A stretch of 64,000 nt of DNA. Origin: Giardia intestinalis (lineage: Eukaryota). Location: NCBI GenBank assembly GCA_000002435.2, contig CM018791.1. One strand, 5' to 3'. Both the position numbers and the translations under genes were made by a program. How positions within the stretch are numbered: position 1 is the first letter of the stretch; every line of letters begins with the position of its first letter. This document shows, piece by piece, positions 1 through 31,400 of this stretch. The notes under the pieces were generated by a model. That model made no database searches, was not told the DNA's origin, and was given only the letters and a program-made list of their open reading frames with translations.

Positions 1-3000
1 GGATCTGCCCATGATACTCGTAGTAATATGCGGCGTAAGCATTGTCGAAAAGATAATAATAAGGTTTCTTTTGATACGCATTGAGCCTCTCTAACTTTGC
101 TGAAGAGACGGTTCGCTCGCTTTCCTCTAACGTCATGTACATCTTGCCCTCTGAGGCATTGAACGTATAACACACCATATTAGACTCACAATCCATATCC
201 TGCTGCAACTGGTCTCTCTTTCGCTCAAGAAGGTCCCTTATATATAATTCAGTTGCTAGCAAGGGGAACACACCTGCTGGGCTTATCTTAGCTGGCTGGC
301 CGGTGCCTGCCAGAGAAGCCATCGGACTTGCTTGCGCAGCAGAAGATCGAAGTAAGTCGTCCATAGAGTTATTGGCTAATTGACTGCGCAAAGATTGACC
401 CTTCAGTGGAGAGGCTTGTGGACGCTTTGGAGTCTTTTGCTGCACAACTGAAGCTGTGCCATCGGCAGGTTGATTGCCATTAGAGCCAGAGATAGCCACA
501 ATGTTATTTCTGGTAATTCCGATAAGAAGGCTCAGGATGTATTCTTGGATTTCCAAGAGAGCCTCAACTATCTGTAGCTTAGACAGCACTCCATCCCGAT
601 CACTGCTGGATCGACTGCTTTGATTTAGGACTCCCCTGATTGTGTCGTCTGGATTAACCCTGGTCTTATCAGCGAGAAGCGACGCACTCAAGGCCGATGT
701 TCCTGCACTGGTGTTGGATGGGCGCTTATAAAAGGACGACGCATTCTCAAACTCTTGCGGGTAATTGATGAAAAACCACGTCACGCATTGTCTAACAACG
801 CTGATAACCTGGACCGGGTATGATGCAATAAAGTTCAGAAACACCTCAGAAGAGAAGTTTATCCGCAAGGTGATTTCCCTCTGGTGCACCGATAGCTTTG
901 AATCGCCAAAGTTTGCGGTTAGGGAGCTGTGCCCAGGCGTTGCTATATTCTTAGTTGATATACTGTGATCATGAAGCGGCAGTCTATCGAAAATTATAGA
1001 GACCATGCTGCGGAGCTCAGGCGCGTGCTGCTGTACAGCAGATCCCATCATTGTCTGTAGGGTATTAGATATGCGGGTATCCAAGGCTGATAGCCATACG
1101 TCAGGAGACCCTCTTATGCGTATGTCCTTCTCGGACGTTGGTTGCATAAGCATGAGTGCTTCACCCTCACGTGACCGTACCCCCTTTAAGTAGAGCGAGC
1201 GAACATCGTGCTCAGTCTTTGTTTCGCAGATAAGAGACGTCACATTCTCAAAGCAGTTCTGAAGAGTACGGGTCAGAAGAGTTGGATCAAAGGGCGCCCC
1301 ATGGGCCGTCTCGTCCTGTGCACTCAGAACTATTAGGAGTTCATTATCAGAAAGGAAAAAGAAGCGCATGAACTGGCGGCGTTTTATATCCAGGTACTTC
1401 AGAATGTTGGCATAGATGGCATCGAGATCGGTTTGCCATCCCATGATACTATGAATTGTATCTTTTGTACACCACACAGCTACCTTTTGAGTCCTTGCCA
1501 CAGAATTCATAAGCGAGAGGTAGTGCTTCACGAGCTTGGTGAAAGTCCGCATATCCTCGGGCAGCTGGCGGACAATCGGGCTTGATGGAGCAAAGATGCG
1601 TAGAACAGCGATGAACTTTCGCTGATACAGATCCCAGATGAGAATTGCATCCTGGCATACAGTGCAGGTATTCTTAATATTGATAAGTTCGCGCATGGCA
1701 GGGTTGTCGCCCAGCCGCATGAATTGAGATTCAAGTGTGTTTAGCTCTGTTTTGACATCATTAAGTACGTTTTCGACAGTGTCGGTCAAGGTGATCAGAT
1801 AGACCTGCTGGCTGAGAGAGGCGTGATCTGTAGAAAGGGTTCCTGTGTAGGGTATAAGTGGCAATGTCAATCCATCCAGTTCTTGCTTCAGCTTGGAAAG
1901 ACTGCTAAGCAAGCTGTACTCGAGCTCAATTGAGCGCATAAAGAGGAGAAAGCTGTTCATGACGCTCGTCTCCAAAATCCCGCGATATACAAGGCGATTA
2001 ATAGAAGCGGTGAAGCGGTCCATTTCTATAAAAAGGCCACCATATCTAATTTCTGCACGCTTCTTGGCTCTTCTTCGGAAATATTCCTCCTTTTCTGCAT
2101 CAGAACCAAAGATCTTATAGCAGACGTTATAGAGCATATCGGTGCTATAAATAGAGGGCCGTTGAAGGATGAAAGAATAATTTGTCATCTGCGAGATCAG
2201 CACTTTAGAATCTGCCACATCCTTTTCGCTTCTGACGTCCCCAAATTGCTCACTAATGACATAGGCCTCTGATTTCGTTATCCAGGCCTTCCGTGCAGCT
2301 AAGTGGGCAAGGTATTTGGCCTGCACTGCCTGTACATGAGTTGCAACTGTGCTAACGCTGAGAGAAAAGTTTCCTGACATCTTTGCCTTGATGTTTTGTT
2401 GTTCAGCCTCTTCCTCTCTGTCTGAAAGGTCCTCGTCATTGTCATCCTCTTCAACGCTAGCGTATAAATTGAGCATAATCTTGTTATGATCAAGCGATTG
2501 TTGAGCTCGTGATCCCGCTGCGCCAGAGCTGCCCCCAATGATGTTGGAGCTCAGCATAATAAGCTCTGCAATGCTATCGGACTCTGATCCGAACAGGACT
2601 CGGTAAACGTTGTGCTGCTCTGGGGAGAGAATCTCAAAGAGTGGTAGCTCCTTGTAGTCCAGTTCTAGCATGAGAAATCTGGATGACATTAGTTTGTATT
2701 CCAAAAGTAAATTGGGTGAGCGTAGATATTCACGGGTGAGCATTTTGAAATGTCGTGGCTGGAATGCAATCGAGGAAATGAACTTGAATTGGGGCAAAAG
2801 AGTCTCGATTCTCTCTAGGAGCTCTATTGTTAGTGTGAGAAGGGAGGGAGGCTGTAGGTAATAATTAATTGCCTCAAGCATCGTTGGTTCAGGCTGATTT
2901 CGCTTAAAGTCATCTATTCCTTCAAACTCGCTAAAATTATATAGTAAGGGTTCTATCCTGTCCTGCTTTTTGTATTGAACGAGGACTGTTTCTGGATCGT

Positions 3001-6000
3001 AATTGTCAAGATTTTGAGCCATAGAGGCGGGTATGACGACTTTGCCCCGGGTCTCAAGGGTTGTCACGTCTGTGATGCTAACGCTAACGCCTGTACTAGT
3101 TGGAAGTTCTGTGGTAAGAGAGATGTCCTCGTCAGCTGCCGAATCAAAGTCAGAATCGTCTGGAAGCTGATCATTATGGTAGCCAAGTATGCCCTTACCT
3201 TGTAGTTCGTATTGGTCACTAATAGTCTTGCCCATCGAGCGTTGGGATTGACGCAGAGAATGTAAAAACTCTCCTGTCTTGACTATCTTTCCGTTTTTAA
3301 GCATCTTTCCTTGAGAATGCAACATTTCATCGAGTAGTGCCCGGTCTGCAACCACCTCTTTGTATATTAGTAGCAGATATTTGAGGACTGTCCTATTAAT
3401 TTCTCCGGCCACAGAAGTCGGTGGCTCCTCGTGATTATCTCCATAGGAACACTCAAGCACGCAGTCAGTAATCACTGTAGGATCAAGCAGATGGGATTCC
3501 AGGAATGGTCTGAAAAGAGCCTCTAATAGTAGTATGTCCTCTTCTGGCGATTCATGAGGGGCATCATTCCTTTGGCTTTCAAAGGCCAGCTCATCGTGAT
3601 GTGCTTTCTGAGCAATGCGATGGGCAGTGATTCGCGCTTTCAGATCCAATTCGCCCAGATTCATGCAAATACTAGTGAACTTAGCTTCATCATAGATTGC
3701 TTGAAACCGTGCTCTTAACCCCGTAAAAACACGCTTAATGGCTCTTACCTTCCGCCCAACAGAAGGATAGTCAACCATGCAAAGAGGCCTCGAAAAGTCG
3801 TTCTTAATGAGGAGGTTCAATCCGTGCATGAAAAGCCAGAAGTCCCGCCTGATCTTACCAATCCGTCTGATTGCCCTAATAACAAACTCAGACTCGACTA
3901 TAGCAGTGGGGGAGAGCTTCCTAGTGACAGTACGGATGTGCTGGGGGACGGGTTCTCCGGGTTGTTCTTCTATCTCTTTTGCCGACTGGAGCACAAGGTC
4001 CAGTGCCTCAGTGGTAAAATCATCCTCCTCAGCTATCTGCTGTATGCTCACGGCAGGCTGATCGAGTGAGCCACTAGGAGATGGGCCATCCTTTTGTGGC
4101 TCCTGGATATTGTCTGCAGGGCATCGGCTGGTAACGCCCTCTCCCTCGTGGAGAGTGTCGGGCTCGCCCAAATAAACATCTCTGTAATAATAGCTTATAA
4201 CAGTCTCCTCCGGCATAAAGAATTCTGTGCTTTCAAACAGGTGGATACACTGATAAAAGTACAGGCTTTCATCATCGATGGTCATAGAGGCCTGAAGCGC
4301 ATTAATAAAGAACTCGTACCTGTGTCTACATACAGCAGAGCCTGTCGAAATGGGAGCCTCGAAAACATCGGGCCCCTCTAGATTGGTTTGATTAAGTAAG
4401 TAGTAAAAGAGTTCAGTTGGTGTCCGTATTGCTCCGATAGAAGAAATGTCTGCGCAACCAGGGTGCTCGTTGAGTGGGTCTTCGAGACTTTGACCATCAT
4501 CATTCTCAGCGGACTGAGAACCGATCACCATTTGATCAACGTCTAGAATTGCTTTGAGGGAGTCATAACAAAGCCTCTGGAGTTTGAAAAATAGAACAAT
4601 GAGGTCGTAACGGAAGACAGAGTAAAGGCGAGTGCGCTTATCTGCAAATCTGGCCAACAAAAGATCAAACATTTGCAGGGATCTATCAAAATCTTTCATT
4701 GCCTCATTGCAATTAGGGTCCTCCTTGAACTTGAAAAACTTCTCAAAGTAGTCCTGTACCCCTTCTACAGCACCTGCATCACTAATGATATTCTTGTAAA
4801 TGGCAAGCTCGCTCATTACTTCACACTTCCTGTACAGCTCATGAAAGAGCCTATGCTCAATTTTGGCCTCCTCAAAGTATTGCAGAACGTCTTTTGTCTG
4901 CAAGAGCTTGTCTTTATCAATCACTTGTGTGGTGATCTCCTCGTTTCTGAGAAAGTCAATATCGCTTAAGGCGGCATTATTGAAGGTCATCGCGGTGAAG
5001 CTTTTATCTGGTATTTTCTTCAGCTCTGCAGTGTAAAAGCCTATCTTGTGGATACAATTCTTGGCAACAATAAGAATCGTCTTGGGAATAGACAACCTAA
5101 CAAACTGTAGGAGCTTTATCATGATTGGCAGAAGCGCAGAAGCAATCGGAGTTGAATCTACCTGGAAGCAAAGGATACATCGCTTGACCCGTAGCTTTGT
5201 CAGAGATAAAACAACGTGTTCAATGGAATCGATGCGAGACCTGAATAAATATGGGTTCAACTCTGTAATCAAACGAAGAAATGCACTTCTAACAAAGTTG
5301 TCAGATTCTGGCAATAAAGGTACAGTTCTGTTGTTTAAATGCTGGAGACCTGCCTGATAGCGAGCTGTTTCATCCATTTCTGGGACTTCGTCAATAGGGG
5401 ATGCAAGACCGTTAGATGGAAATGCGTAATTGGTCATCATCCTAAAATCAAATTCGGAAGCTAGCTGGCATAGAAATGCATAGTCGTTTGCGTACTCTTC
5501 GGCAGCCCGCCGGTGTGTGTATGAAATGCCCGGGTGTTCTTCTGTAAGTAGCTGCAAGCTCTTGTCAGAGGACTCGGACTCCTCAGAGTGCTGATTCAGT
5601 ACTGGTTTGGCAGCGCGTGTTGTAAAGCTGACGGTATGTGACGCAATTGGAACCTTTTGCTGCATAAGCTGTTGAATAAGCCCTTCGTCGCTCAATCGGC
5701 TAATGCAGTCACTCACGCCCACAAGAAGATCCAAGAATCCGACGGCATACTCACGAATCTTATCGCATCCGTGCTCTAGGTGCTGCTTAAGCGCCCTTAT
5801 TCCATTGGTATACTCCCCATACTCACCTAAAATGTCTTTGATTGATATTCCTACCAGCGGGGCGTGAGCTCCACTGTCCGAAAAGAAGGAAGAAAGCTTC
5901 ACGAAGCTCATGGGCCGGATTGACCGGTGAACACATGTAGCATAGTCAGACAACACGTCTCCTATAAAATTGATAAAGTCAGTACGGGACGGGTACATGC

Positions 6001-9000
6001 ACAAGCCTTCCATAGTTAGGATAAGTTGGATATTGAAAATGGGTGCCGGCGGCAGCCTACCATCAAGGATATACAGGGGAACTCCCGTGAACTTCCTGAC
6101 ATTAATAGCGCTCTCGGTGTTTGGAACTAACACAGCTATCTGCGTCAAAAGATGGCTAATGTCCTCATTGCGCTCTTGACGAAGGTCAATGGTTGTGAGG
6201 CTTTGCTCCTTCTCTTGCTGCTTCTTTTGCAGAATGGGGTTTTCTACAGAGCTCTTCTTTGCTAGGGCAGTGGGTCCTAAATCATCATAGATATCTAGTG
6301 AATCCTCTCCTTTACGATTAGCGAGAATGGAACTTTTTATCTTCCCAACAAGTAACGCCGCTATACTCTGGTCTCCTCCTCCTCCATCTATGGAAGTCTC
6401 TTGGAGCTTGACATAGCGAGCTAATCTAATGGAATCAATGAATGGGAAATCATTAGCAGACTCGCTGGCGATACGCGATAAATCGCTGGCGCACGATTTC
6501 ACAAACTGACTCAGAAGCAGGTAGTCGTCTTTTTTCACAGTCGCCTTTGCTTCGTTATCTAGATGATGAAGCACCTCGTGTGAGGCATTCTTTTGCTTAT
6601 CAGCTCCTTGTGCTAAGTATTTTTGGACCTTTGGCGGGTTTATAAGGAGTCTGCGCCCACCATCCTCTTGGAGCAAGTTGAGATCTTCTTGTGTCAACTC
6701 CCGGATGCTCTGGGGCGCCGTTGATTCTTGTTCGCGGGGGATGCATGGCACACCGAAAAATAAATCCATTAGATCGTCATTTGCTTGAAGTAAGAGTTCA
6801 AGCATGAACTTAACCATCATATAATCGACCAGACGAATCATTGCCCGCACTCTAGACATGTTAAATACGGAATAGCTCGATAGCGTAGACAGTATTGCTT
6901 TCGAATTGCGCTTCTGCGCCTTTTTAGAATCGTGACTAACATCAGAACGACCCTTGACAGACGCTGGGCCGACTTGTTGCTGCGCTTTGGCGCTAGAAAC
7001 TCCAGACGAAGAAGCGCTTTCTGATGCACTCTGCTGAATGATACGACCATGGACCTGCTGCTGCACTTGCTTTCCCAGCACTAGAAGGATTTCGGAGATC
7101 GTTGTAATATAGTTGCCCAGAAGAGACTTGACGGCAGTGATCCGGTTGCGCGACTCCACTACGAACTGCTTGAGAGTTATGGTGCTTGGAACATTGGTCA
7201 TAGTTACGTACAAAGCCTCTGCTCTCTTTTTATCCAGGCCCAATCTGGTTAAGTATGTTGGAAGAAATTCAAAGCAGTACTTCTTAAAGGGAACAAAGCG
7301 GAGCTCTAATGAAAACTGGTAGCACAAACTGTGAATTTCCTGGAGCGGGCCCAGGAAGACGTTACTGGCCAAAAGGCTGGAGCGTGTCAGTGCCGAAATG
7401 GACTTATTACGAGCTGTAGTCGCTATGCTGTGCTTCCAGAGGCTCAAGTACTTTCGCTGCCTAAAGGTGGAGAAAAAGTTGTTCCTCCGTAACTCGAGGT
7501 AGTATCTGCGCTCCCTTTCCCAATCAGCGATGCTTAGAAGCTGTGTTGTCTTAGTGGCTGGCTCCTGATAGCATATACCGTTGCAAGAAAGAGTAAAGTA
7601 CCGATCTGGGTTGATTTGGTGATATGCACAGACCAGCAGCTCGTATGGGTTCTGCCATGGATGTGATTGTGCGTAGACCTGTGACACGTCACAAGCAGCC
7701 GCTGGGCAATGTACATTCTCAACGGAGGAGTGACTGCGAGGAGTTTTTCTCCCAGACGGTGTGTCTGATGAGATTTGCCCTCTGGCAAAAGCATCGGCGG
7801 CAGTGTAACCTACTTCAGCATGACTTAAAATCATTTGGCGGACAGAGGGGATATCATATGTAAGATAAATAAATTCGGATTGCATGAGTCCACTTGCAAT
7901 AAGCTCAGGAGAGGCGTTAAGAAAGGCCTCGTACTGAGTCTTAAGGCCCGTGTAGTAGGTTTCTGCATACATCATGAGTTCGTAGGAAGTAGTATAGCTA
8001 AAAGAGCTTCGATCGCCATCCAAATTCTTAAAGTAGTTACGGAGCTCCCTGCAAATATCAAACTTTTGGTTATGAGAGTAACCTTTGGCCAGTTGAAAGG
8101 GGGACTCTGTAAATTTGGTAGAGAAGCTCGACTTTCGTAATCCTCCTGGGGACCCGTGCACGGAATGCCCTGTGGCAGAGTCGGCTATAACTTGCTCGCC
8201 ATTAACATCTTGGCAGATGATACGCTCAATCTCCGCGCGTTCTTTAATACACTTAAAGATTGGAAGTACTGCGTCTATCTCGATAATAGCTTTTGTCAGT
8301 GGGTCAGCAGAGCCATCTGCACACTCCTCTGTTGGAAGGGTAGCAGCTTGCTGTAGCGCATCGTTGCTTGGTGCGTGAATGGGGACAGGAGTTGCTGAGC
8401 TGAGATCCTGTTTAGCCGATTTAGTTGTTTTTCTGAGGGATGCACTGGATGCAGAGCCTGCTCGGCTTTTAATCACCCAATCTGACATAGACCGTGTAAT
8501 TTTCTTAATCCCTTGGGACAGCTTTTCGTCCGGTCCTTCCAAGGCGTCCTGTCCTCGTGATCCGCTATGATCTGCAGTACCTGAAATGCTGCTAGAGTAC
8601 CCCATTTCGCTAGCACTGCGTATCTTGCCAGTAAACTTATATTTCTTGTTTAAGCCTCTAGTGTAGCTACTAAGCGCTGTGCTGGGCCGGACCGCGTCCA
8701 GCGCCATCTTACTGTTCTGCTCATACAGCTTGCAGCCCTGTAGCTGCCCAGGATCGACCACAAACTCTGATTTTCTTCCTGTGCGCTTAAACTCCTCTAT
8801 ACGTCGCTGTAGTGCTAGCTCTGGAGGATTGTCTCCTGATGGACCACTTTGGGCACCTGTGAAGGTCAGTCTATCACCGTATGACGAGTCTGCAGTGCCC
8901 CCGGTGCGTTCACGCCGGATCCTGGAGGTAAGCTGAGTGGTACTAGTCGGCCTTCGAAGGACCCCTGAGCTAAGAGGTGTAACTCTCAACGTATCTTCTA

Positions 9001-9709
9001 ATATCTCACTTTCATCAACGTGACCTGCATTGGTTCCGAGTAATGCAGAAGCAATACTGTCACGACTGACACGTCCATAAATGTCAACTGTGCAAAGTGG
9101 AGAAGACTCTAATGCTTTCTGAGCATCTTGGCGTCGATAGCGCTCTGGAGAAAGCTGGTACTGGGATAAAAACTGCTGCGTGGGCTCAGAGCCAACGTCA
9201 TGAAGGCGAAGAGACTGGCCTGTTGCTGAGGCACCGGGTGGTTGGTTTGTTTCTTGTGCAGCTTTAGTGTACAGCCTTTTAGATGAAACCAAACGGCCTA
9301 CCGGGCCCAGCAAAGCCTGAGGGCCGTTACCTGCCGAGCTATCTCGCTCCTTTCTCTTTGTAATAGCAGTGTCGTAGCAGCGTTCTAAGGGAAGAAGTAG
9401 AGAGCCAGTGGAGACTTGATTGAGACGCTCCCCGAAGACAAGTGGGGGCACGGCTGTGGATCCGACTGGTTTGAGAGGCGGCTGCGCACCCATAGGTGGA
9501 GGTGACGAGTAAAGCTTGGCAGCGGGGTTGGGCGGTGTCTGGGCCGAGCTGGGACGTTGGGCCCGGGACCCTATAATAGCAGTGTTAGGAGTTGTGTTTG
9601 ACGAGATGTGTTGTGTTCGTAAGCTAGTGGTTGGTCTTCCAGTATGTGAAAGAGCTGATTGTGGCCGTGTGGTTCTAGCAGCTCCAGTGACATCATATGT
9701 GTCAACCAT
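1..9709 (-). CDS. Dynein heavy chain, N-terminal tail plus start of the linker (partial; the ORF runs off the left edge of the window)
   Basis: The ATG at 9709-9707 is preceded by an in-frame TAA. Hand translation of the minus strand is open all the way to position 1. The ORF track lists no closed ORF in this frame over 9.7 kb, consistent with a truncated giant ORF. Near coordinates 1100-1400 the translation reads ...DIKRRQFMRFFFLSDNELLIVLSAQDE...PFDPTLLTRTLQNCFENV...VRSLYLKGVRSREGEALMLMQP...DVWLSALDTRISNTLQTMM. This matches the conserved dynein linker block FPRFYFxSxxxLLEILS...PxxVQPHLxKCFEGI...EWLxxVExxMxxSL. The AAA modules would lie beyond the window. Confidence 0.8.
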   Translation of the reverse strand, partial: MVDTYDVTGAARTTRPQSALSHTGRPTTSLRTQHISSNTTPNTAIIGSRAQRPSSAQTPPNPAAKLYSSPPPMGAQPPLKPVGSTAVPPLVFGERLNQVSTGSLLLPLERCYDTAITKRKERDSSAGNGPQALLGPVGRLVSSKRLYTKAAQETNQPPGASATGQSLRLHDVGSEPTQQFLSQYQLSPERYRRQDAQKALESSPLCTVDIYGRVSRDSIASALLGTNAGHVDESEILEDTLRVTPLSSGVLRRPTSTTQLTSRIRRERTGGTADSSYGDRLTFTGAQSGPSGDNPPELALQRRIEEFKRTGRKSEFVVDPGQLQGCKLYEQNSKMALDAVRPSTALSSYTRGLNKKYKFTGKIRSASEMGYSSSISGTADHSGSRGQDALEGPDEKLSQGIKKITRSMSDWVIKSRAGSASSASLRKTTKSAKQDLSSATPVPIHAPSNDALQQAATLPTEECADGSADPLTKAIIEIDAVLPIFKCIKERAEIERIICQDVNGEQVIADSATGHSVHGSPGGLRKSSFSTKFTESPFQLAKGYSHNQKFDICRELRNYFKNLDGDRSSFSYTTSYELMMYAETYYTGLKTQYEAFLNASPELIASGLMQSEFIYLTYDIPSVRQMILSHAEVGYTAADAFARGQISSDTPSGRKTPRSHSSVENVHCPAAACDVSQVYAQSHPWQNPYELLVCAYHQINPDRYFTLSCNGICYQEPATKTTQLLSIADWERERRYYLELRRNNFFSTFRQRKYLSLWKHSIATTARNKSISALTRSSLLASNVFLGPLQEIHSLCYQFSLELRFVPFKKYCFEFLPTYLTRLGLDKKRAEALYVTMTNVPSTITLKQFVVESRNRITAVKSLLGNYITTISEILLVLGKQVQQQVHGRIIQQSASESASSSGVSSAKAQQQVGPASVKGRSDVSHDSKKAQKRNSKAILSTLSSYSVFNMSRVRAMIRLVDYMMVKFMLELLLQANDDLMDLFFGVPCIPREQESTAPQSIRELTQEDLNLLQEDGGRRLLINPPKVQKYLAQGADKQKNASHEVLHHLDNEAKATVKKDDYLLLSQFVKSCASDLSRIASESANDFPFIDSIRLARYVKLQETSIDGGGGDQSIAALLVGKIKSSILANRKGEDSLDIYDDLGPTALAKKSSVENPILQKKQQEKEQSLTTIDLRQERNEDISHLLTQIAVLVPNTESAINVRKFTGVPLYILDGRLPPAPIFNIQLILTMEGLCMYPSRTDFINFIGDVLSDYATCVHRSIRPMSFVKLSSFFSDSGAHAPLVGISIKDILGEYGEYTNGIRALKQHLEHGCDKIREYAVGFLDLLVGVSDCISRLSDEGLIQQLMQQKVPIASHTVSFTTRAAKPVLNQHSEESESSDKSLQLLTEEHPGISYTHRRAAEEYANDYAFLCQLASEFDFRMMTNYAFPSNGLASPIDEVPEMDETARYQAGLQHLNNRTVPLLPESDNFVRSAFLRLITELNPYLFRSRIDSIEHVVLSLTKLRVKRCILCFQVDSTPIASALLPIMIKLLQFVRLSIPKTILIVAKNCIHKIGFYTAELKKIPDKSFTAMTFNNAALSDIDFLRNEEITTQVIDKDKLLQTKDVLQYFEEAKIEHRLFHELYRKCEVMSELAIYKNIISDAGAVEGVQDYFEKFFKFKEDPNCNEAMKDFDRSLQMFDLLLARFADKRTRLYSVFRYDLIVLFFKLQRLCYDSLKAILDVDQMVIGSQSAENDDGQSLEDPLNEHPGCADISSIGAIRTPTELFYYLLNQTNLEGPDVFEAPISTGSAVCRHRYEFFINALQASMTIDDESLYFYQCIHLFESTEFFMPEETVISYYYRDVYLGEPDTLHEGEGVTSRCPADNIQEPQKDGPSPSGSLDQPAVSIQQIAEEDDFTTEALDLVLQSAKEIEEQPGEPVPQHIRTVTRKLSPTAIVESEFVIRAIRRIGKIRRDFWLFMHGLNLLIKNDFSRPLCMVDYPSVGRKVRAIKRVFTGLRARFQAIYDEAKFTSICMNLGELDLKARITAHRIAQKAHHDELAFESQRNDAPHESPEEDILLLEALFRPFLESHLLDPTVITDCVLECSYGDNHEEPPTSVAGEINRTVLKYLLLIYKEVVADRALLDEMLHSQGKMLKNGKIVKTGEFLHSLRQSQRSMGKTISDQYELQGKGILGYHNDQLPDDSDFDSAADEDISLTTELPTSTGVSVSITDVTTLETRGKVVIPASMAQNLDNYDPETVLVQYKKQDRIEPLLYNFSEFEGIDDFKRNQPEPTMLEAINYYLQPPSLLTLTIELLERIETLLPQFKFISSIAFQPRHFKMLTREYLRSPNLLLEYKLMSSRFLMLELDYKELPLFEILSPEQHNVYRVLFGSESDSIAELIMLSSNIIGGSSGAAGSRAQQSLDHNKIMLNLYASVEEDDNDEDLSDREEEAEQQNIKAKMSGNFSLSVSTVATHVQAVQAKYLAHLAARKAWITKSEAYVISEQFGDVRSEKDVADSKVLISQMTNYSFILQRPSIYSTDMLYNVCYKIFGSDAEKEEYFRRRAKKRAEIRYGGLFIEMDRFTASINRLVYRGILETSVMNSFLLFMRSIELEYSLLSSLSKLKQELDGLTLPLIPYTGTLSTDHASLSQQVYLITLTDTVENVLNDVKTELNTLESQFMRLGDNPAMRELINIKNTCTVCQDAILIWDLYQRKFIAVLRIFAPSSPIVRQLPEDMRTFTKLVKHYLSLMNSVARTQKVAVWCTKDTIHSIMGWQTDLDAIYANILKYLDIKRRQFMRFFFLSDNELLIVLSAQDETAHGAPFDPTLLTRTLQNCFENVTSLICETKTEHDVRSLYLKGVRSREGEALMLMQPTSEKDIRIRGSPDVWLSALDTRISNTLQTMMGSAVQQHAPELRSMVSIIFDRLPLHDHSISTKNIATPGHSSLTANFGDSKLSVHQREITLRINFSSEVFLNFIASYPVQVISVVRQCVTWFFINYPQEFENASSFYKRPSNTSAGTSALSASLLADKTRVNPDDTIRGVLNQSSRSSSDRDGVLSKLQIVEALLEIQEYILSLLIGITRNNIVAISGSNGNQPADGTASVVQQKTPKRPQASPLKGQSLRSQLANNSMDDLLRSSAAQASPMASLAGTGQPAKISPAGVFPLLATELYIRDLLERKRDQLQQDMDCESNMVCYTFNASEGKMYMTLEESERTVSSAKLERLNAYQKKPYYYLFDNAYAAYYYEYHGQI

Positions 9710-9890
9710 ATAATCTTATTAAAATGTGAATTATCTTTTTCTTATTGTACTTTTTTCACATTTTGCCATCCTCCCTCCAATGATGTTTGTCGTCTTCTCC
9801 AGCCATATATCTACTTTTTCCAAGATGGGTCAACTCATGATTATTACCAACATATAGTATAATCTAAATCATTTTGCACCGAAAATAGTT
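9710..9890. promoter_or_regulatory. AT-rich divergent intergenic spacer (putative bidirectional promoter) between the dynein HC gene and the 2730-aa ORF
   Basis: A 181-bp AT-rich spacer lies between head-to-head ATGs at 9709 (-) and 9891 (+). A/T-rich sequence directly abuts both ATGs. Confidence 0.4.
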
Positions 9891-12800
9891 ATGCCCCCGA
9901 TCGTCGTTCCACTAGCGATGACATCCTCACAGGGGGACCAACAGGTGTTCTCCCTGAGGACACTACACCGTGTCGCAGAGCATGGCAGCTTTCTAACTTA
10001 TGATTTCAGTGATGACGCTGATTCTGTCATTGCAGGCTTGGAGGCTTCTTGTCCCGACTCTTTTGCCAATCAGACCATACCTACGCTCAGTTCTGACCAA
10101 TGTGACATGTTAAACGATTACTTAGACTTATGTAACACTATCCATGCACAAAGCTCTGTTTTCCACGAGGTTCATAGCGCCTCTGATGACCTCCAATCAA
10201 ACATTGATTATGCTATGTTTCTACTAACAAAGGGTACGGAGACAGCTCCAATCTTACGGACTATTCTACCGAAGCTCCAAGACACCGTGGGGAATTCTGC
10301 CGGCAACTGCTCTGATGTGGAGCCGGCAGAGATCAATGTAAGCTATGATCAGATGCCTCTGTCGGTTCGGAACTATCTTTTTTCACCCTATCTATTTGTC
10401 CACACATCTAAAGTTGCCTTCAAAGTGACTGATAAGAAAATGTCTACATGGTTTGTCACCACAGGCCCGCCCCAACTGGTGCAGGCCACGCTGACTAGTA
10501 TTGTCAGACCAGATGGAGTTACCATCACAAACACAGATGAGCAGTACTTGACATTATTCTCTTCACTCACCGACCTAGATACCGTTATTTACGCCAGCAT
10601 AGATAGCATGTATTCAGAACTTATAGTAGATCTTCCCATGTGTCCCGATTACTTCCTTGTCGCTTACCTACAGCCTATATTTATTCCACACGATAGCGTG
10701 ATAACCGGTGACTCATCTGGAGCTAGCATTACCCCCGTGAACCTTATGGAGACAGGAATCACCTTTCAGCTGAGAAACAACTGGGTTGATATAAATAATT
10801 TCTTAGCTCCTGGCCTCAGCACATGTGCTTTCCCGACAGTCTTGTCAGACGAGGACGCAGCGACACTTGAGTGGGTTGTTACCAAAATGAATCAGATCAA
10901 ATGGAGTTCGACCATATCACAGACACCTAAAACGAAGACTACCTCCGCAACCGTTACAGAAATTTATGAAGAGTATGTGTCTTTAATGAAAGCTGAAAGA
11001 AACGAGGCCTACGCTGCTGAGATGTCTAGACTAGTTATGTCCTACATAGATGGCGTTATAGACTTCAATCCCTTGTTATTTGGTCTCGTTTGCCTTTCCT
11101 TTATCAGCTCGAAACTCATCTATGTGCTTCTAAAGTACATCAATCTAGTTTTTGACCCCCCACTGGGCCTGCTCAGGAGTCTTGGACTTCCGGAGGCGTT
11201 CCCAGTCTTACACAATCTGACTTCAGTAACAGATTGTATCTATGGAATAGACTACGTTTATAGTAATATTATCGACGATAAGGAGCGGCTAGAACAGACT
11301 ACGCGGCCATTAAGTGTCTTAAAGAACAATCGCCCCGGCCACTCCCTTCAGTATAACAAGCATTACAGGACTTATTACAGTTCATTTTTTCTCCCCACAT
11401 ATCAAAACTTCACCAGGACCCAGTCGCTGAGTGTACCTCTATACAACATCTTTGCTCGAGACGTTGTCTCCACGAAGCAGCGCCGCTTTATCCCACTTAA
11501 TGAGCTTTCTCTTATGGAAGGGAAGGCGCCTCATGATATCATATATGTGGATGGAACTAGACCCATTAAGTTTATTAAGGATGGCAACGGAATCCAGCTT
11601 GTTGAGATTAGCATCCGAGACAGGACAGATACAAATATCCCCATTCGAGTGCCACATGACCTTTATCAGAACGTCGTCAATATGGTTGATCGTAGTGCGT
11701 CTACGGAGCAGTGCCGTGCCGAGCTCCAGCGCATAATAGAGGGCCAGTTCAAGCTATCGAAGCAGCTCAACGGGGAAAGAAATTACAACTCCACAAGAGC
11801 TATTACATACCAGAAACGCCAGAAGGCCGCGAAGCAGTCTGCTACAGATGAAGAGGGTCACTCTGACAATTCCCTCAACTCCACCACCTCGCCTACTTGC
11901 TTGACGGCGTCGCTGGACCATGGCAAGATTTCGTCTACTAAAAAAGTCACGCAAGATAGCAGCTTCATTCCTATACTTTGCGAGCCACGAGACACGGCTG
12001 TGCTGCTATCTGGGGCCACCGATATCAGCACAACTATGGTGGGGCCTATCTGCCATGCATGCTTCAATGCCCAGGCAGCGTCTTCTAACATATTGGGCGT
12101 TATTCAAACAATGATTGACGAGAGCATCTTTACCTATCAGGATGTATTGGGGGCAACACCTCCATCCCTGGTACACTTTGATGGCCGGAAGGACACTACC
12201 AACAATCCTGCCCAGACTGAAGTTATATGTGATGACTCCACTGATCCCACTTCTCTGGTCACCAAAACCACTGACGATAAGCTTGAGCTTGTGGTGGACG
12301 ATCAGAAGCTGTATTCATATCGTGATATCGCGATCGTTCGAGCCTCCTGCAACCCGTCAGTCACCGTTACAGACTTGGATTCTTATCGAGACATCTGCAT
12401 TCAGTTTAGCCTCATGATCGAGCGCTCTCGCCTCTGTGTTTACTTTCCTAGCTTTACGTACCATGACTATATAAGCCTCGGACTATACAACAACAAACTT
12501 CACTATCTTCATACCAATTCAGGATTTCACTTAGGATTTCTCCGGTTTCTTTTTGACTCTGCATTTACAACAGAGATAGATAGGTTTTCAGGCAATTCTT
12601 TGGGCACCTCAACCACTCAATCCTCCTCGCACGCCTTTTGTGTAACCGATGATCTTATAAGATTGGTTCAAGCAAGTGACTGTGAGAACTACGCACCTGT
12701 ACTCATTGATTTATTCAATAAGTTTGTCCTTCTAAATACTTATTTTATTTCTCGAAACATATCGTTTATTAATCCAGTCTTCAGTATATTGGATGCTACT

Positions 12801-15800
12801 TGCAGCAGTCAACTTGCGACAGAATCTTCTAACAACGAGCACCAGGACCCCAGCGAGTGTCCTGATCCATTTGCCTCTGATTTTATTGACCCAGCGTCAT
12901 TTATTACTCTGTCTGTTGGAGATACCAGCAGCTCATCTCACCCTATTAACTCTGCTAATTCCTTAGTCCAGCTCTTTAGCCCATTCCAACACCATGGAGA
13001 CTATACCAATCAGTCGGCTCTAGTTTATGCCATACTTACTCTTAGATTTCTGACCACCTTTATGGGAGGGTCTCTCGCTCTTCAAGAAGCTATTCGCCTC
13101 TACACCATCGCGGCCAGCTACTGCATGATTAGCTCCATACCTCCTCTCAAATGCTCAGTCAACCTAGCAGAAGTCAACTCAGATTCAAATGCACTGCTGG
13201 ATGAGACCATGACCTTGTGTGGTTCCAAGTCGTCTATCCTTTTGATTAATGAGCATAATCGTCACCTCGGCTTTTCAGAATCAGCCCAGGCTCTAAGTCT
13301 TGTCGATCATTTTAATGAAGACATACTTCATGGAGGATACAAGGCGACCATAAACAATACATTTACTCCGCTTTCTCCATTTTTGCTCTCCAAGGAGTAC
13401 TGTCCATCAGTTGTTCAAGACTCATATATTCACACAAACCTACGCAGTCTTCAGTATATCAGATGGTTGAGCGGCTCAAACTCTTTCCGGCCGCACACAT
13501 TTGAAGAATCAGACTCTGCGGGATACGACTCTGCCGTGGCTTATATCAAGGACTCTGCAAACATCACTGACCAGGTATCTCAGGCCTTCCTGCTGGAGGG
13601 TTCCATGAGAAGAAAGATAGAATCGTGGCCACACTATGGGGTATCTTATCGAGTCTGTCCAAATTACGACGCAAGCGTCAATGGCACAGCGCTGCCCAGT
13701 GCTAAAATGGTTATTTGGAGTAAGGACGACATCCCCACTGATTACATGTCTTCAAAGCTATTGGCCGATAGCGTATTCAACAGGGGAAAGTACGTCACAA
13801 TTCCATATGGATCTGAGTCCTATGGTTCCGTCAATCCTCACGAACTCGGGGCCGCTGCTAACGAATCCAAACAGTCAGCAAAGGCCTCTAGTGCCGAGCA
13901 TGATAAGAAAAAGGACAGTAAGGCCAAAAATATGGACGCAGATCGAGAGCTTGATTCTCTAGCAGACACCCTTTCTCTTATTAAGCAGATACAATTAAAT
14001 CCAGCCTATCCATGCGACGCATCCGCTTTCACCGCACTTTACACATCTACAGATAGACCCGTTACAATCAAGTATCACTTTATGGCCACAACGGGCCAGG
14101 AAGCCTCCATGCATCATATCGAAGAAGAGCAGATATGCTTTGGCATGCTAAGGGTATACATCAACGCCTTGCTACGGATCCTCATAGAGTGGATTGCGAT
14201 TTATGCGCCTTCCCTTCTGTGCTATTACGATGTGAGTCTGTCCGCCACTGCAGCGTCGGCCCCTCCCGACAACACTCGTTTCTGCCCCTTCGGGTTCAAT
14301 CGGTTTGTAAGCTCTGCGCTTCTCGAAGATGAAGCCGAGTATGCCGCGGGGACTCTACTCAAAAAGGACCTTGTGTCAGAAAGTATTGCATCTAAAGATC
14401 GAGCCAACACTCCCACGATCTTATGCTCTCCTTTTTTGGCAAGCAGCCTCAAGGAAGATCTTTCTGCCGGAAAAGAATGCCCTTGGCAACAGGATAGTCA
14501 ACCTGCTATGTCTTTGGCGCAGTATTTCAGTGAAGCCGATCAAGCCGGCAGTGCAGACGATGTCCAGACGCGTATCGGCCGCAAATCTCTGTATTCAGAC
14601 CAATTTCTGTCTGACCATGCGAGCGTCTTAGCGTCCTATAGGAAGATAGAGAGCGCCATGGCCACAGATAAGATCTTATCGGCAACAGATATTGTGAATA
14701 GCACAGACAGGTCCCTCCGCTTCCTTGCATATCCATACATTGTGTTCCCAGTCAATAACACAACGCATTATTCACGCATTTACTCAAAGGACCGCTTCCA
14801 GGAGAGTGACTGGTCGCAACTTAGTCCACCGCCGCCACGCATACACACAACCCTTCAGTTCTTTATTTGTCAGGTGTACACTGGTTCTGATGTCCTTTTT
14901 AGCTTGTTTACAGAACCACTTATCACAGTCCCCCTACTGGCCAGAACAATGCAAAACTTGCTGAGCCGGGCCATGCTGGCTGAACAGCGGGCATCCTATG
15001 TTTGGCGAACAATTTGCCCAGATTCGCACTTTACAAACTGCGACCAGAGCTATATGTGCATGTCTTCATGGGACAAGAAAGTCTTAACCCCAAAAGCAAT
15101 TCTGCAGGACTTTAAACGGCGCAACAATGACCTTATTCAGGGGCTTGACCCGGAGCTTTGGCCCATCACACTAGACCCCTCCCATATGCACCTAGGGAGA
15201 CTAGTATATCCGAGCTATTACCGTGCTTCAAGCAATCTCGAGGACCAGGCAGCTCTTTTCAATCGCTGGGGATCAGGGATGATAAGCACATTGATATCGT
15301 CCGGTACGCGGAACCTGCAGAACGAGCCTCAATCCACTCTCCTAATTAACTTTATTCCGCGGATCAATCCCTATCGTATTTCTCACGAGTTCTTGCAAAA
15401 GAGCCAGCTAATTGTACCAGGGATTATATCCCCCAGTTATGCTACTGCAGAGTTAGTCCGTTTGTACCGAACATACTTCTTCAGTATGGACGAGGAGTTT
15501 GTAAGATTGGTCCTCTGCAGGTCCAGCATGCTTTTTTCCTGCATCACTACAGGCTTTACCACGAAAACAAATCAGTCCGTATACGATCTGTGCGGATCAA
15601 ATCCTGTCTCGGAAGACATCTACTACTTCGCGACTCTAGGCTATAAGCATCTGCAAAACGCGGTTAATACAAAACAGTACACATATCCAGCGCCAATTTC
15701 CCTGTTGGACATAGAGCAGGTCATCTCTGGAATAGAGCTAACGTACAGTTCCTACGTTAGCAATCAGAAGTACTCAGAGTATCATTACACTGATGAAGAG

Positions 15801-23100: not shown

Positions 23101-23147
23101 ATTAATATAAAAGGTAAAATTTAACGAACTGGGCAAAAGTGAAATAA
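23101..23147. promoter_or_regulatory. 47-bp AT-rich bidirectional intergenic spacer
   Basis: attaatataaaaggtaaaatttaacgaactgggcaaaagtgaaataa lies between divergent ATGs at 23100 (-) and 23148 (+). Confidence 0.4.
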
Positions 23148-31200: not shown

Positions 31201-31400
31201 CTAGCTGCGGCGTTCTGGGAGTCAGACGAGCCCGCGGGTTCGTGGTGGAGCATCCGTCCAGGCAGGTGCTTGCGGGTTGTCTTGGCTGTTGGCGTCGGCT
31301 GCTGATGTTGCGCGTCAGTGGGAAGGCTGCTGCCCTCGAGAGAAGCGGCACTCTCGCACGCAGACCCGGAGAACCCTGCATTACAGATGCAGCCATCTCT
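27300..31400. other. GC-rich compositional island (GC and GC3 far above the flanks)
   Basis: By eye the sequence switches abruptly to G/C-ending codons near 27.3 kb (inside the helicase ORF). It returns to about 48% GC near 31.4 kb (inside the large HCMP ORF). Many spurious long ORFs appear on all frames in this interval, which is the usual symptom of stop-codon depletion in GC-rich DNA. Confidence 0.6.
28246..30156 (-). CDS. Papain-family (C1) cysteine protease, cathepsin-like, enlarged (636 aa)
   Basis: Signal peptide MLLLTLSFLCAASA. ERFNIN-like pro-region fragment (EAERNFCMHLEHLRRL). Catalytic Gln/Cys block VDLREVGLVTRAKDQGLCGSCYEF. His block NHQVMLVGYG. Asn block ILRNSWGTGWGVSGYYYIGRG. 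About 290 aa lie between the catalytic Cys and His versus about 135 in canonical enzymes. Confidence 0.85.
   Translation of the reverse strand: MLLLTLSFLCAASAERDPFSIHMACEHAFERFVGLYGKAYDTPGDRLEAERNFCMHLEHLRRLRREGHEHVTFGITSRMDRHPRAGLLPPRSLGGGEWGAAADACKWTNKTNKYEGCNVDAYELGPDLKGDTQANSQSANADDKNKKQDSFFLVDVRDMNVKDRQRTLPHSVDLREVGLVTRAKDQGLCGSCYEFTTIEVLENLMLVDADLYTRGKYLDPQPFPSNYFCNCSAPASQDDSQKSTDCATMITVQNRTEKEYTDIPENWKSYSASTLRLSVQFLLDNLIGGNYCNGGNYFRAIADFVNKLSKLAKESECIYREYATPEKAAPDDGTKCQGTNIGDFNPAFVSMPMKKKGSSSNSGAAGSDEYEYDVNGGSGTPKKFGVYQILRNEGVPASGPIVGEMDKGKFAEWERNVMNVLARGVGVAAAMHTESGVDTSIDKDYESVVASALTFNLYKGGVFPDVKCVRATTNHQVMLVGYGAHKGRPVWILRNSWGTGWGVSGYYYIGRGSNSLCHELTVEYTMPRFYGPDRDGVHPLFLSAPDEAQKVAIADAVRASPFSSKVKRCVNGLDTVDAHGGTMCEALEVSAWNYVLVGALAIVIFFLGRYCMQYYFCAPEYIFHSPLNLNLPHKGV

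What the first reader, a model, noticed from the sequence alone, without database searches (positions are those of the whole stretch)
1..9709. Dynein heavy chain with about 2.8 kaa of ORF upstream of the linker motif
The conserved linker block (FxRFxFLSxxELLxxLS...) that normally sits about 1,300-1,550 residues from the N-terminus of dynein heavy chains is here about 2,780 codons downstream of the first ATG (9709), in one continuous frame with no stop. Either this dynein carries an N-terminal tail roughly twice canonical length (extra cargo/adaptor-binding region or fusion with an upstream gene), or the real start is an internal Met and the upstream about 1,300 codons are an unusually long stop-free leader. 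Both would be notable. Diplomonad DHC genes are also known to be awkwardly split or fragmented in annotations, so this locus deserves manual curation.
Basis: partly seen in the sequence, partly recalled or inferred. Interest (0 to 1): 0.5.

Follow-up and report, generated by a model that had tools for sequence, protein, structure and literature searches.

The report
Giant Giardia dynein with doubled tail
This is the front 44% of an already annotated, roughly 7,450-residue Giardia dynein motor gene whose tail really is about twice the normal length, is translated from the first ATG, and is conserved in related parasites, so it is real and unusual but not a new discovery.

Summary
On the minus strand, ATG 9709 opens a stop-free frame of 3,236 codons to the window edge. 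The linker motif FMRFFFLSDNELLIVLS sits at residue 2780, and Pfam DHC_N2 covers 2596-2889. The "long untranslated leader" alternative is refuted. Codon usage is in frame in every 200-codon block, and the chance of a stop-free run this long is about 1e-55. The whole region is colinear with giant orthologues in Giardia muris (6,840 aa) and Spironucleus salmonicida (5,504 aa), starting from their own first Met. A shared KLYSSPPP motif lies upstream of the next Met. Public assemblies call the gene at 7,377 aa (7,449 from Met1, about 836 kDa). [quoted passage not shown] Residues 675-985 are homologous to the N-terminal tail domain of DNAH6/DNAH14-type single-headed inner-arm dyneins only. About 670 residues precede that block, most of the first 550 with disorder-like composition. 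About 1,600 conserved, probably helical residues lie between it and the linker, against about 650-800 in canonical relatives, and they match nothing outside diplomonads. The orthologues' motors are very divergent ("orphan"). Most likely this is a lineage-specifically expanded inner-arm-type axonemal dynein. The function of the extra tail is unknown. Interest is moderate.

The parts
2..9709 (-). 5' part (residues 1-3236 of about 7,449) of the giant dynein heavy chain gene; it continues beyond the left edge of the window
   Evidence: Stop-free frame. In-frame codon usage in all 17 blocks of 200 codons. The public gene call gives 7,377 aa from Met73, with DHC_N2, AAA_6, MT and AAA_9. Colinear with G. 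muris residues 35-2989.
9707..9709 (-). True start codon (Met1)
   Evidence: TAA lies two codons upstream. The sequence immediately 5' is AT-rich, attttaataagattatATG. The N-termini of all three orthologues align from their own Met1. The reported 834.7 kDa fits 7,449 aa (836 kDa) better than 7,377 aa (828 kDa).
9710..9890 (.). 181-bp intergenic region shared with the divergently transcribed 2,730-aa neighbour; presumed bidirectional promoter region (inferred)
   Evidence: ORF map and sequence. No experimental transcription start site is available.
8060..9709 (-). N-terminal extension, residues 1-550: S/T/P/Q-rich, mostly disorder-like composition with short conserved islands
   Evidence: Composition scan. 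48-631 aligns with G. muris 35-560 at E 9e-94, and 23-128 and 405-502 align with Spironucleus. No Pfam or PDB match.
9494..9517 (-). Conserved KLYSSPPP motif (residues 65-72), immediately upstream of Met73
   Evidence: Identical LYSSPPP in G. muris (residue 53) and S. salmonicida (residue 54). Coordinates verified. It shows that the Met73 start used by the automatic gene call is too short.
6755..7687 (-). DNAH6/DNAH14-type N-terminal tail domain (residues 675-985; core 686-825 = window 7235-7654)
   Evidence: phmmer against PDB: DNAH6 216-356 at E 2.6e-8, 8glv_Fm 182-295 at E 1.4e-8. The three-species profile gives 8glv_Fm at E 8.5e-19, continuing weakly to chain residue 438. hhalign against DNAH14 63-193 gives probability 98.9%. 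Among the human axonemal chains of 8j07, only DNAH6 matches this block, while all match the linker.
1925..6754 (-). Mid-tail, residues 986-2595: about 1,600 residues, conserved within diplomonads, ordered composition, probably helical, with no demonstrable homologue outside diplomonads
   Evidence: 40-60% identity to G. muris in most 50-residue blocks, the same as the linker. An exhaustive HMMER search with residues 1251-2450 finds only G. muris, S. salmonicida and three fragments. The profile against PDB finds nothing beyond the tail block. The profile-profile score against the canonical mid-tail is no better than reversed or shuffled controls. No repeats.
3920..4159 (-). Insert specific to this species, residues about 1851-1930, acidic and proline-rich, absent from both orthologues
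   Evidence: Three-way alignment: 100% and 92% gaps in G. muris and S. salmonicida for block 1851-1900. Disorder-like composition.
1043..1924 (-). Linker (Pfam DHC_N2), residues 2596-2889, including the motif FMRFFFLSDNELLIVLS at window 1322-1372
   Evidence: PF08393 at E 2.8e-34. Matches to more than 55 solved dynein chains. Coordinates verified.
260..742 (-). S/A-rich insertion between linker and AAA1 (residues about 2990-3150); the linker-to-AAA1 spacing is about 200 residues longer than canonical
   Evidence: Composition. Low identity and gaps relative to the orthologues. The end of the linker match to the pre-AAA1 match spans 315 residues here against 113 in an outer-arm beta chain.
2..46 (-). 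Pre-AAA1 segment DNAYAAYYYEYHGQI at the window edge; the AAA1 Walker A GNAGTGK follows 31 residues later, outside the window
   Evidence: Locus L001 extends the window by 110 bases, and its translation ends ...LIGNAGTGK. G. muris has YSYEYHG...GASGTGKT...LDEFNR.

Best explanation
Window 2-9709 (minus strand) is the first 3,236 codons of one intron-less Giardia gene for a giant, highly divergent ("orphan") dynein heavy chain. [quoted passage not shown] Translation starts at ATG 9709.

The tail really is about 2,600 residues long and has four parts:
1. An N-terminal extension of about 670 residues. Most of the first 550 have disorder-like composition, with short conserved motifs (RPQS, KLYSSPPP, GGLxLPxE).
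2. A domain at residues 675-985 that is homologous to the N-terminal tail domain of DNAH6/DNAH14-type single-headed inner-arm dyneins. In those dyneins this part of the tail anchors the heavy chain on the doublet microtubule together with actin and a light chain.
3. A diplomonad-specific, conserved, probably alpha-helical mid-tail of about 1,600 residues. Canonical relatives have about 650-800 residues in this position.
4. The normal linker, followed by AAA1.

Shown here: the reading frame, the start codon, the domain order, conservation in G. muris and S. salmonicida, and the class-specific tail homology. Inferred: the protein is a monomeric inner-arm-type axonemal motor that docks through the conserved tail domain. 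Also inferred: the extra mid-tail and N-terminal extension lengthen or re-route the tail and provide lineage-specific binding surfaces. The expansion was already present in the common ancestor of Giardia and Spironucleus and has grown further in Giardia (5,504 -> 6,840 -> about 7,449 aa).
For: - Frame and chance odds.
- Start codon: conserved sequence upstream of Met73 in three species, AT-rich context, and mass fit.
- Full length and motor domains: public gene call of 7,377 aa with DHC_N2, AAA_6, MT and AAA_9; AAA1 Walker A just beyond the window edge.
- Orthologues: G. muris TNJ28261.1 (6,840 aa, E 7e-227) and S. salmonicida EST41750.1 (5,504 aa, E 5e-34), found with the mid-tail alone. They are colinear over the whole 3,273 residues.
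- Equal constraint on the extra tail and the linker: 40-60% against 46-62% identity.
- Class-specific tail domain. Internal control: every human axonemal heavy chain in 8j07 matches the linker, but only DNAH6 matches the tail block.
- Independent assemblies: three contigs identical to the window, and the contig is seen in 10 samples.
- Protein detected by mass spectrometry in the actin and 14-3-3 interactomes (PMC5597967) and in a cell fraction (PMC3044749). An actin association is what inner-arm dyneins are expected to show (PMC8552679).
- Orphan diplomonad dyneins are described by Kollmar 2016 (PMC5100056).
Against: - The motor of the orthologues scores only 250-306 bits against canonical heavy chains of any class, and no class stands out. 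Inner-arm membership therefore rests on about 300 residues of tail.
- In G. muris only AAA1 keeps a consensus Walker A. In S. salmonicida the AAA1 Walker B reads EDINE instead of DEFNR. Normal motor activity is therefore not assured.
- The identification with GL50803_42285 rests on the shared product name of the G. muris orthologue and on the mass fit, not on a sequence comparison.
- No localisation data were found.
- The mid-tail could not be modelled (pLDDT 32-34) and could not be aligned to canonical tails above control level. "Helical extension of the tail" is therefore only a tendency seen in low-confidence models.
- Kollmar states that one diplomonad orphan has a tail that cannot be aligned to any class, and argues for axonemal location only for the others. 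If this gene is that one, the axonemal inference is weaker.
Confidence: 0.7

Rival explanations
1. The real start is an internal Met near the canonical tail length, and the upstream 1,300 or more codons are a stop-free 5' leader.
For: An automatic gene caller did choose a later Met, but only Met73. The first 200 codons have the weakest codon-usage signal.
Against: Codon usage is in frame in every block. The odds of staying stop-free by chance are 1e-29 for 1,300 codons and 1e-55 for 2,450. There is amino-acid conservation from residue about 20 onwards with G. muris and S. salmonicida, including a dynein tail domain at 675-985. The intergenic gap before ATG 9709 is only 181 bp, with AT-rich context.
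Confidence: 0.01
2. The long N-terminus arose by fusion of a dynein gene with an unrelated upstream gene, so the extra residues are a foreign cargo or adaptor module.
For: Residues 1-670 and 986-2595 have no detectable homologue outside diplomonads, so a foreign origin cannot be excluded by homology.
Against: The largest extra stretch lies between two dynein-homologous segments (the tail domain at 675-985 and the linker at 2596), which is not what an N-terminal fusion gives. No Pfam domain, no free-standing homologue, no repeats, and no similarity to the neighbouring gene. The same architecture is found in three species. A Chlamydomonas DNAH14-like chain (P0001, 4,905 aa) also carries about 570 more residues than DNAH14 before the same tail block (tail block at 647 against 77), so N-terminal extensions occur within this class.
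Confidence: 0.07
3. The protein is a dynein-derived giant that is no longer an axonemal inner-arm motor. It would have been co-opted for a cytoplasmic or structural role, for instance compensating for the reported absence of cytoplasmic dynein 1 in Giardia, or acting on cytoplasmic axonemes, the ventral disc or the median body.
For: The motor is extremely divergent and unclassifiable. Nucleotide-binding motifs are degenerate outside AAA1. Kollmar reports no DHC1 in Giardia and one diplomonad orphan whose tail fits no class. The protein was recovered in actin and 14-3-3 pull-downs and in a mitosome-enriched fraction rather than from purified flagella.
Against: The only class-specific signal is an inner-arm tail domain. 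S. salmonicida has both a DHC1 and this orphan, so the orphan did not arise as a replacement for DHC1. Actin association is expected of inner-arm dyneins. Single-peptide hits in organelle fractions are weak evidence.
Confidence: 0.2
4. Assembly or annotation artefact: two genes were joined by a collapsed or mis-assembled region or by a sequencing error that removed a stop codon.
For: None found. It is considered only because giant ORFs are sometimes artefacts.
Against: Three contigs from different sequencing runs are identical to the window over the region, and the contig recurs in 10 samples. Orthologues of 6,840 and 5,504 aa in two other genomes are colinear throughout.
Confidence: 0.01

Closest known systems
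Giardia muris TNJ28261.1 'Ciliary dynein heavy chain 11' (6,840 aa) and Spironucleus salmonicida EST41750.1 'Dynein heavy chain' (5,504 aa)
   Same: Orthologues, colinear from the first residues through the linker to AAA1. They share the KLYSSPPP motif, the tail domain, the mid-tail and the linker.
   Different: They are shorter by about 600 and about 1,950 residues. The window protein carries additional inserts, for example residues 1851-1930 and several low-identity patches.
DNAH6 / DNAH14-type single-headed inner-arm dynein heavy chains (Wickstead & Gull IAD-5; Kollmar class DHC9; Chlamydomonas dynein g type), as in PDB 8j07, 9fqr, 9d2f, 8glv
   Same: Homologous N-terminal tail domain (query 675-985 matching chain residues about 150-440). 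Homologous linker. No Pfam DHC_N1 match in DNAH14 (P0005) or in the DNAH14-like Chlamydomonas chain P0001 either.
   Different: Those chains are 4,100-4,400 aa, with the linker motif near residue 1,165-1,190. Here the motif is at 2780 in a protein of about 7,449 aa. The mid-tail is not alignable, and the motor does not group with any class by score.
'Orphan' dynein heavy chains of Kollmar 2016 (PMC5100056), including Giardia and Spironucleus orphans, and the divergent Giardia sequences flagged by Wickstead & Gull 2007 (PMC2239267)
   Same: A divergent motor that fits none of the standard classes. Tail-based reasoning is used to infer an axonemal position. One diplomonad orphan is said not to align along its whole tail.
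   Different: The papers as held here give no length, no domain map, and no description of the doubled tail. Which of their orphans corresponds to this gene could not be established, because the supplements are not held.
Cytoplasmic dynein 1 heavy chain (DYNC1H1)
   Same: Linker homology only (E 3.5e-6 to 5.6e-6, query 2688-2892).
   Different: No DHC_N1 dimerisation or intermediate-chain-binding region. The tail block does not match it. Kollmar reports that Giardia has no DHC1.

Membership tests
Dynein heavy chain superfamily | Linker domain (Pfam DHC_N2, PF08393) N-terminal to the AAA ring | tested here: met
   E 2.8e-34, residues 2596-2889. More than 55 solved dynein chains match the same stretch.
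Dynein heavy chain superfamily | AAA1 with Walker A directly after the linker | tested here: met
   GNAGTGK at about residue 3267, 31 residues beyond the window edge in L001. AAA_6 appears in the public gene call. G. muris has GASGTGKT and LDEFNR.
Dynein heavy chain superfamily | Six AAA modules with a stalk and microtubule-binding domain | tested here: inconclusive
   This part lies outside the window. The precomputed Pfam list for the 7,377-aa product has AAA_6, AAA_5 (faint), MT and AAA_9, but not AAA_7, AAA_8 or the C-terminal domains. DNAH14 aligns with the G. muris AAA1, AAA2 and 4613-5048 regions only.
Dynein heavy chain superfamily | Pfam DHC_N1 (PF08385) tail region | tested here: not met
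   No match even at E<=10. This is not disqualifying, because four of the seven canonical hits, including DNAH14, also lack it.
DNAH6/DNAH14-type single-headed inner-arm dynein (IAD-5 / Kollmar class 9) | Class-specific N-terminal tail domain | tested here: met
   DNAH6 at E 2.6e-8, 8glv_Fm at E 8.5e-19 with the three-species profile, and DNAH14 by hhalign at 98.9% probability. No other human axonemal or cytoplasmic chain matches this block.
DNAH6/DNAH14-type single-headed inner-arm dynein (IAD-5 / Kollmar class 9) | Motor domain groups with the class | tested here: inconclusive
   Only crude score ranking was possible. For G. muris: DNAH14 306 bits, an unclassified heavy chain 301, outer-arm beta 274. 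No phylogeny was run, and Kollmar lists the diplomonad sequences as orphans.
DNAH6/DNAH14-type single-headed inner-arm dynein (IAD-5 / Kollmar class 9) | Tail of about 1,000 residues alignable along its length; total length about 4,000-4,400 aa | tested here: not met
   The tail is about 2,600 aa and the total about 7,449 aa. The mid-tail comparison is no better than reversed or shuffled controls.
DNAH6/DNAH14-type single-headed inner-arm dynein (IAD-5 / Kollmar class 9) | Binds actin plus centrin or p28 and sits at an inner-arm site of the 96-nm repeat | not testable with these tools
   Indirect evidence only. GL50803_42285 is listed among proteins shared by the actin and 14-3-3 interactomes (PMC5597967). 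No localisation or tomography data were found.
Cytoplasmic dynein 1 | DHC_N1 dimerisation and intermediate-chain-binding tail; motor groups with DHC1 | tested here: not met
   No DHC_N1. There is only a weak linker match to DYNC1H1. Kollmar reports no DHC1 in Giardia.

The most novel reading that the evidence does not exclude
The roughly 1,600-residue conserved mid-tail and the N-terminal extension (about 670 residues, largely disorder-like) may form a diplomonad-specific module. This module would re-target an inner-arm-derived motor to a non-canonical site or partner. Candidates are the long cytoplasmic stretches of Giardia axonemes, or disc- or actin-associated structures. The result would be a new functional kind of dynein rather than a bloated inner-arm isoform.
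Probability: 0.15. Interest if true: 0.7.

Novelty: new variant of a known kind. Interest (0 to 1): 0.35.

Why it matters
Dynein tails determine where the motor docks and which partners it carries. A tail with twice the canonical length, conserved across diplomonads and attached to an unclassifiable motor, is a natural experiment in how far the dynein architecture can be stretched.

For Giardia biology, this is one of the largest proteins in the cell. It is a plausible contributor to the functional differences among the eight flagella, or to actin-linked cytoskeletal functions.

For genome annotation, the practical points are these:
- The gene is one uninterrupted ORF.
- The correct start is ATG 9709, not Met73 as in an automatic call.
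- The product name "Ciliary dynein heavy chain 11", which suggests an outer-arm DNAH11 type, is not supported by the tail homology. That homology is of the DNAH6/14 inner-arm type.

The gene and its size are already public, so this is a curation and characterisation point rather than a discovery.

Tried and rejected
1. The word-indexed protein search with the whole fragment and with residues 560-1300 returned no orthologue and only seven weak linker hits. That index evidently does not surface the diplomonad proteins. The exhaustive search was what found them.
2. dN/dS across isolates was impossible, because the three public contigs are identical to the window.
3. AlphaFold2 on residues 551-1400 and 1401-2450 with three-sequence alignments gave mean pLDDT of 33.7 and 32.4. 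The models are unusable, so no fold search was run. Only the mostly helical tendency is mentioned.
4. The profile-profile alignment first suggested ten small colinear blocks spreading the canonical DNAH14 tail along the whole Giardia tail. A control rejected this: the true mid-tail score of 21.1 compares with 21.6 for the reversed template and 15.9-25.1 for block shuffles. I therefore do not claim that the extra residues are distributed inserts.
5. No internal or tandem repeats, and no similarity to the neighbouring 2,730-aa gene, so there is no sign of duplication or fusion with the neighbour.
6. No mode-1 14-3-3 motif occurs in the tail of any of the three species. The motif mentioned in PMC5597967 must lie in the motor.
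7. The Rfam and tRNA scans of the window were empty.
8. The Kollmar 2016 supplements are not held, and GL50803_37985 is not mentioned in any searchable paper. The correspondence to named orphans therefore could not be fixed.
Full report
**Observation.** On the minus strand, an ATG at window 9707-9709 is preceded by TAA two codons upstream. It opens a reading frame that runs without a stop for 3,236 codons to window position 2. The other two minus frames carry 149 and 244 stops over the same span. The motif FMRFFFLSDNELLIVLS is at residues 2780-2796 (window 1322-1372). Pfam places DHC_N2 at 2596-2889 (E 2.8e-34) and finds nothing else upstream, even at E<=10. In solved dyneins the same motif lies near residue 1165-1190 in single-headed inner-arm chains and near 1590 in cytoplasmic dynein 1. 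The excess is therefore 1,200-1,600 residues.

**Is the upstream part coding?** Yes.
- A codon-usage log-likelihood model was trained only on the other long ORFs of the window. It favours frame 0 in all seventeen 200-codon blocks and is weakest in the first block.
- From base composition, the chance of 2,450 stop-free codons is about 1e-55, and of 1,300 codons about 1e-29.
- An exhaustive HMMER search with residues 1251-2450 alone, the least explained part, found two full-length relatives. One is 6,840 aa (43% identity, E 7e-227) and the other 5,504 aa (30% identity, E 5e-34). They are Giardia muris TNJ28261.1, "Ciliary dynein heavy chain 11", and Spironucleus salmonicida EST41750.1, "Dynein heavy chain".
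- The whole 3,273-residue N-terminal part is colinear with G. muris residues 35-2989, and in eight blocks with S. salmonicida.
- Identity to G. muris is 40-60% in most 50-residue blocks of the tail, the same as in the linker at 46-62%. The extra tail is therefore under comparable constraint.

**Start codon.** A public automatic gene call starts at Met73 (window 9493). However, the three orthologues align from their own first Met. They share RPQS, an identical LYSSPPP motif (residues 66-72, window 9494-9514, immediately upstream of Met73) and GGLxLPxE. ATG 9709 has an AT-rich 5' context only 181 bp from the divergent neighbour, whereas Met73 lies in GC-rich coding-like sequence. ATG 9709 is the start.

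**Whole gene and identity.**
- The contig recurs in 10 public samples, and three fetched contigs are identical to the window.
- The called product is 7,377 aa, or 7,449 from Met1, with DHC_N2, AAA_6, MT and AAA_9.
- One contig extends 110 bases past the window and reaches the AAA1 Walker A, GNAGTGK, at about residue 3267.
- The literature gives GL50803_42285 a mass of 834.7 kDa and lists it among proteins shared by the actin and 14-3-3 interactomes (PMC5597967). A proteome table names it "Ciliary dynein heavy chain 11" (PMC3044749), the same name as the G. muris orthologue.
- At the fragment's mean residue mass, 7,449 aa gives 836 kDa and 7,377 aa gives 828 kDa.
- The identification is therefore very probable, but it rests on name and mass, not on a sequence comparison.
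- The rest of the window fits a Giardia genome: compact, intron-less, with EGF-type cysteine-rich proteins and a papain-family protease.

**Anatomy of the tail.**
- Residues 1-550 are S/T/P/Q-rich with mostly disorder-like composition and short conserved islands.
- Residues 675-985 (core 686-825) are homologous to the N-terminal tail domain of a narrow group of single-headed inner-arm dyneins. These are DNAH6 from three mammalian axoneme structures, three Chlamydomonas chains of 8glv, and three protist chains.
- A three-species profile raises the best match to E 8.5e-19, with a weak colinear continuation (its own E about 7) to chain residue 438. hhalign against DNAH14 gives 98.9% probability.
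- There is a useful internal control. Every human axonemal heavy chain of 8j07 matches the linker, but only DNAH6 matches this block. Among the seven canonical hits, only DNAH14 and a 4,905-aa Chlamydomonas chain have it.
- Between this domain and the linker lie about 1,600 residues, against about 650-800 in DNAH6/14. Their composition is ordered, with a few short disorder-like patches and no repeats.
- One stretch of about 80 residues (1851-1930) is specific to this species.
- Another roughly 200 extra residues sit between the linker and AAA1.

**What the mid-tail is remains open.** It has no Pfam match, no PDB match even with the profile, and no relative outside diplomonads in 1.84 billion representatives. 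AlphaFold2 with three-sequence alignments failed, with pLDDT of 32-34, so only a helical tendency can be noted. A low-stringency profile-profile path suggested small colinear blocks with DNAH14. My control showed that the true comparison (score 21.1) is no better than the reversed template (21.6) or block-shuffled templates (up to 25.1), so I withdraw that reading. This agrees with Kollmar's remark that one orphan diplomonad dynein has a tail that cannot be aligned to any class (PMC5100056).

**Motor (outside the window, from the orthologues).** The orthologues score only 250-306 bits (G. muris) and 121-177 bits (S. salmonicida) against canonical heavy chains of any class, and none stands out. 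In G. muris only AAA1 keeps a consensus Walker A. The S. salmonicida AAA1 Walker B region reads EDINE. This is the "orphan" pattern described by Kollmar 2016 and flagged as unstable placement by Wickstead & Gull 2007.

**Most likely explanation.** This is a lineage-specifically expanded dynein heavy chain that derives, at least in its tail, from the DNAH6/14 inner-arm type. It is translated from ATG 9709, and its tail is really about 2,600 residues long. The conserved tail domain probably docks it on the doublet with actin and a light chain, as in inner-arm dyneins. This is an inference, consistent with the actin interactome. The extra mid-tail and N-terminal extension probably lengthen the tail and add lineage-specific contacts, which is also an inference. 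The expansion predates the Giardia-Spironucleus split and grew further in Giardia (5,504, 6,840, about 7,449 aa).

**Rivals.**
- A stop-free leader is refuted.
- An assembly artefact is refuted.
- Fusion with an unrelated gene is unlikely, because the largest extra stretch is flanked by dynein segments.
- Co-option to a non-axonemal role is not excluded (about 0.2). However, S. salmonicida has both a DHC1 and this orphan, so the orphan did not arise to replace DHC1.

**Novelty and interest.** The gene, its size and its orphan status are already public. The domain map given here, as far as the searchable literature shows, is not described:
- the start at Met1;
- the conserved KLYSSPPP N-terminal motif;
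- the DNAH6/14-type tail domain at 675-985;
- the conserved diplomonad-specific mid-tail of about 1,600 residues.

The map also shows that the product name, which suggests an outer-arm DNAH11 type, is misleading. I rate this a new variant of a known kind with moderate interest (0.35).

Noticed in passing
window 9491-9709 (minus strand): The automatic gene call on the public Logan contigs starts the dynein at Met73 (window 9493). That cuts off 72 residues, including the KLYSSPPP motif conserved in three species. The call is too short at the 5' end.
   Followed up: yes
window 9891-18083 (+): The divergently transcribed neighbour is a 2,730-aa ORF with no Pfam family at all and no similarity to the dynein. 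It shares a 181-bp intergenic region with the dynein start. It is a large uncharacterised protein.
   Followed up: partly
window 18104-19705 (-) and 30210-34334 (-): Two cysteine-rich proteins with EGF_2 and Teneurin-type EGF repeats (533 and 1,374 aa), typical of Giardia high-cysteine membrane proteins. The second lies in a GC-rich stretch: GC is 0.60-0.63 at 28-32 kb against about 0.46-0.50 elsewhere.
   Followed up: no
window 28246-30156 (-): A papain-family cysteine protease (Peptidase_C1) in an unusually long 636-aa ORF. The protease domain is near the C-terminus, so it has a long N-terminal extension. The region also shows overlapping antisense ORFs (27079-27966, 28184-28921, 28258-29025), which are probably a by-product of the high GC content.
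   Followed up: no
window 26557-28242 (+), 43769-47623 (+), 52356-53444 (+): Ordinary housekeeping genes: a DEAD-box helicase, a P4-type phospholipid flippase ATPase, and a PROPPIN/WD40 protein. Several other long ORFs have no Pfam match (21019-23136, 41953-43629, 48835-51900, 53473-55740).
   Followed up: no
P0001 residues 1-40 compared with window 9494-9709: The 4,905-aa Chlamydomonas schloesseri heavy chain shares the DNAH14-type tail block. It also has a long N-terminal extension, and its N-terminus reads PQSRPEASLLYSSGSWRPP. That loosely recalls the diplomonad RPQS...KLYSSPPP, but the match is not significant (domain E about 1).
   Followed up: partly
orthologues P0008 (G. muris) and P0011 (S. 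salmonicida), outside the window: The nucleotide-binding motifs look degenerate. In G. muris only AAA1 matches GxxGxGK[ST], and the AAA2-like site reads GQQHSFKT. In S. salmonicida AAA1 has SPSGQGKT, and its Walker B region reads FEDINEL instead of DEFNR. The G. muris C-terminus carries a long S/T/R-rich low-complexity insert.
   Followed up: partly
window 3920-4159 (minus strand): An acidic and proline-rich insert of about 80 residues (residues 1851-1930) is absent from both orthologues. It is a recent, species-specific addition inside the conserved mid-tail.
   Followed up: partly
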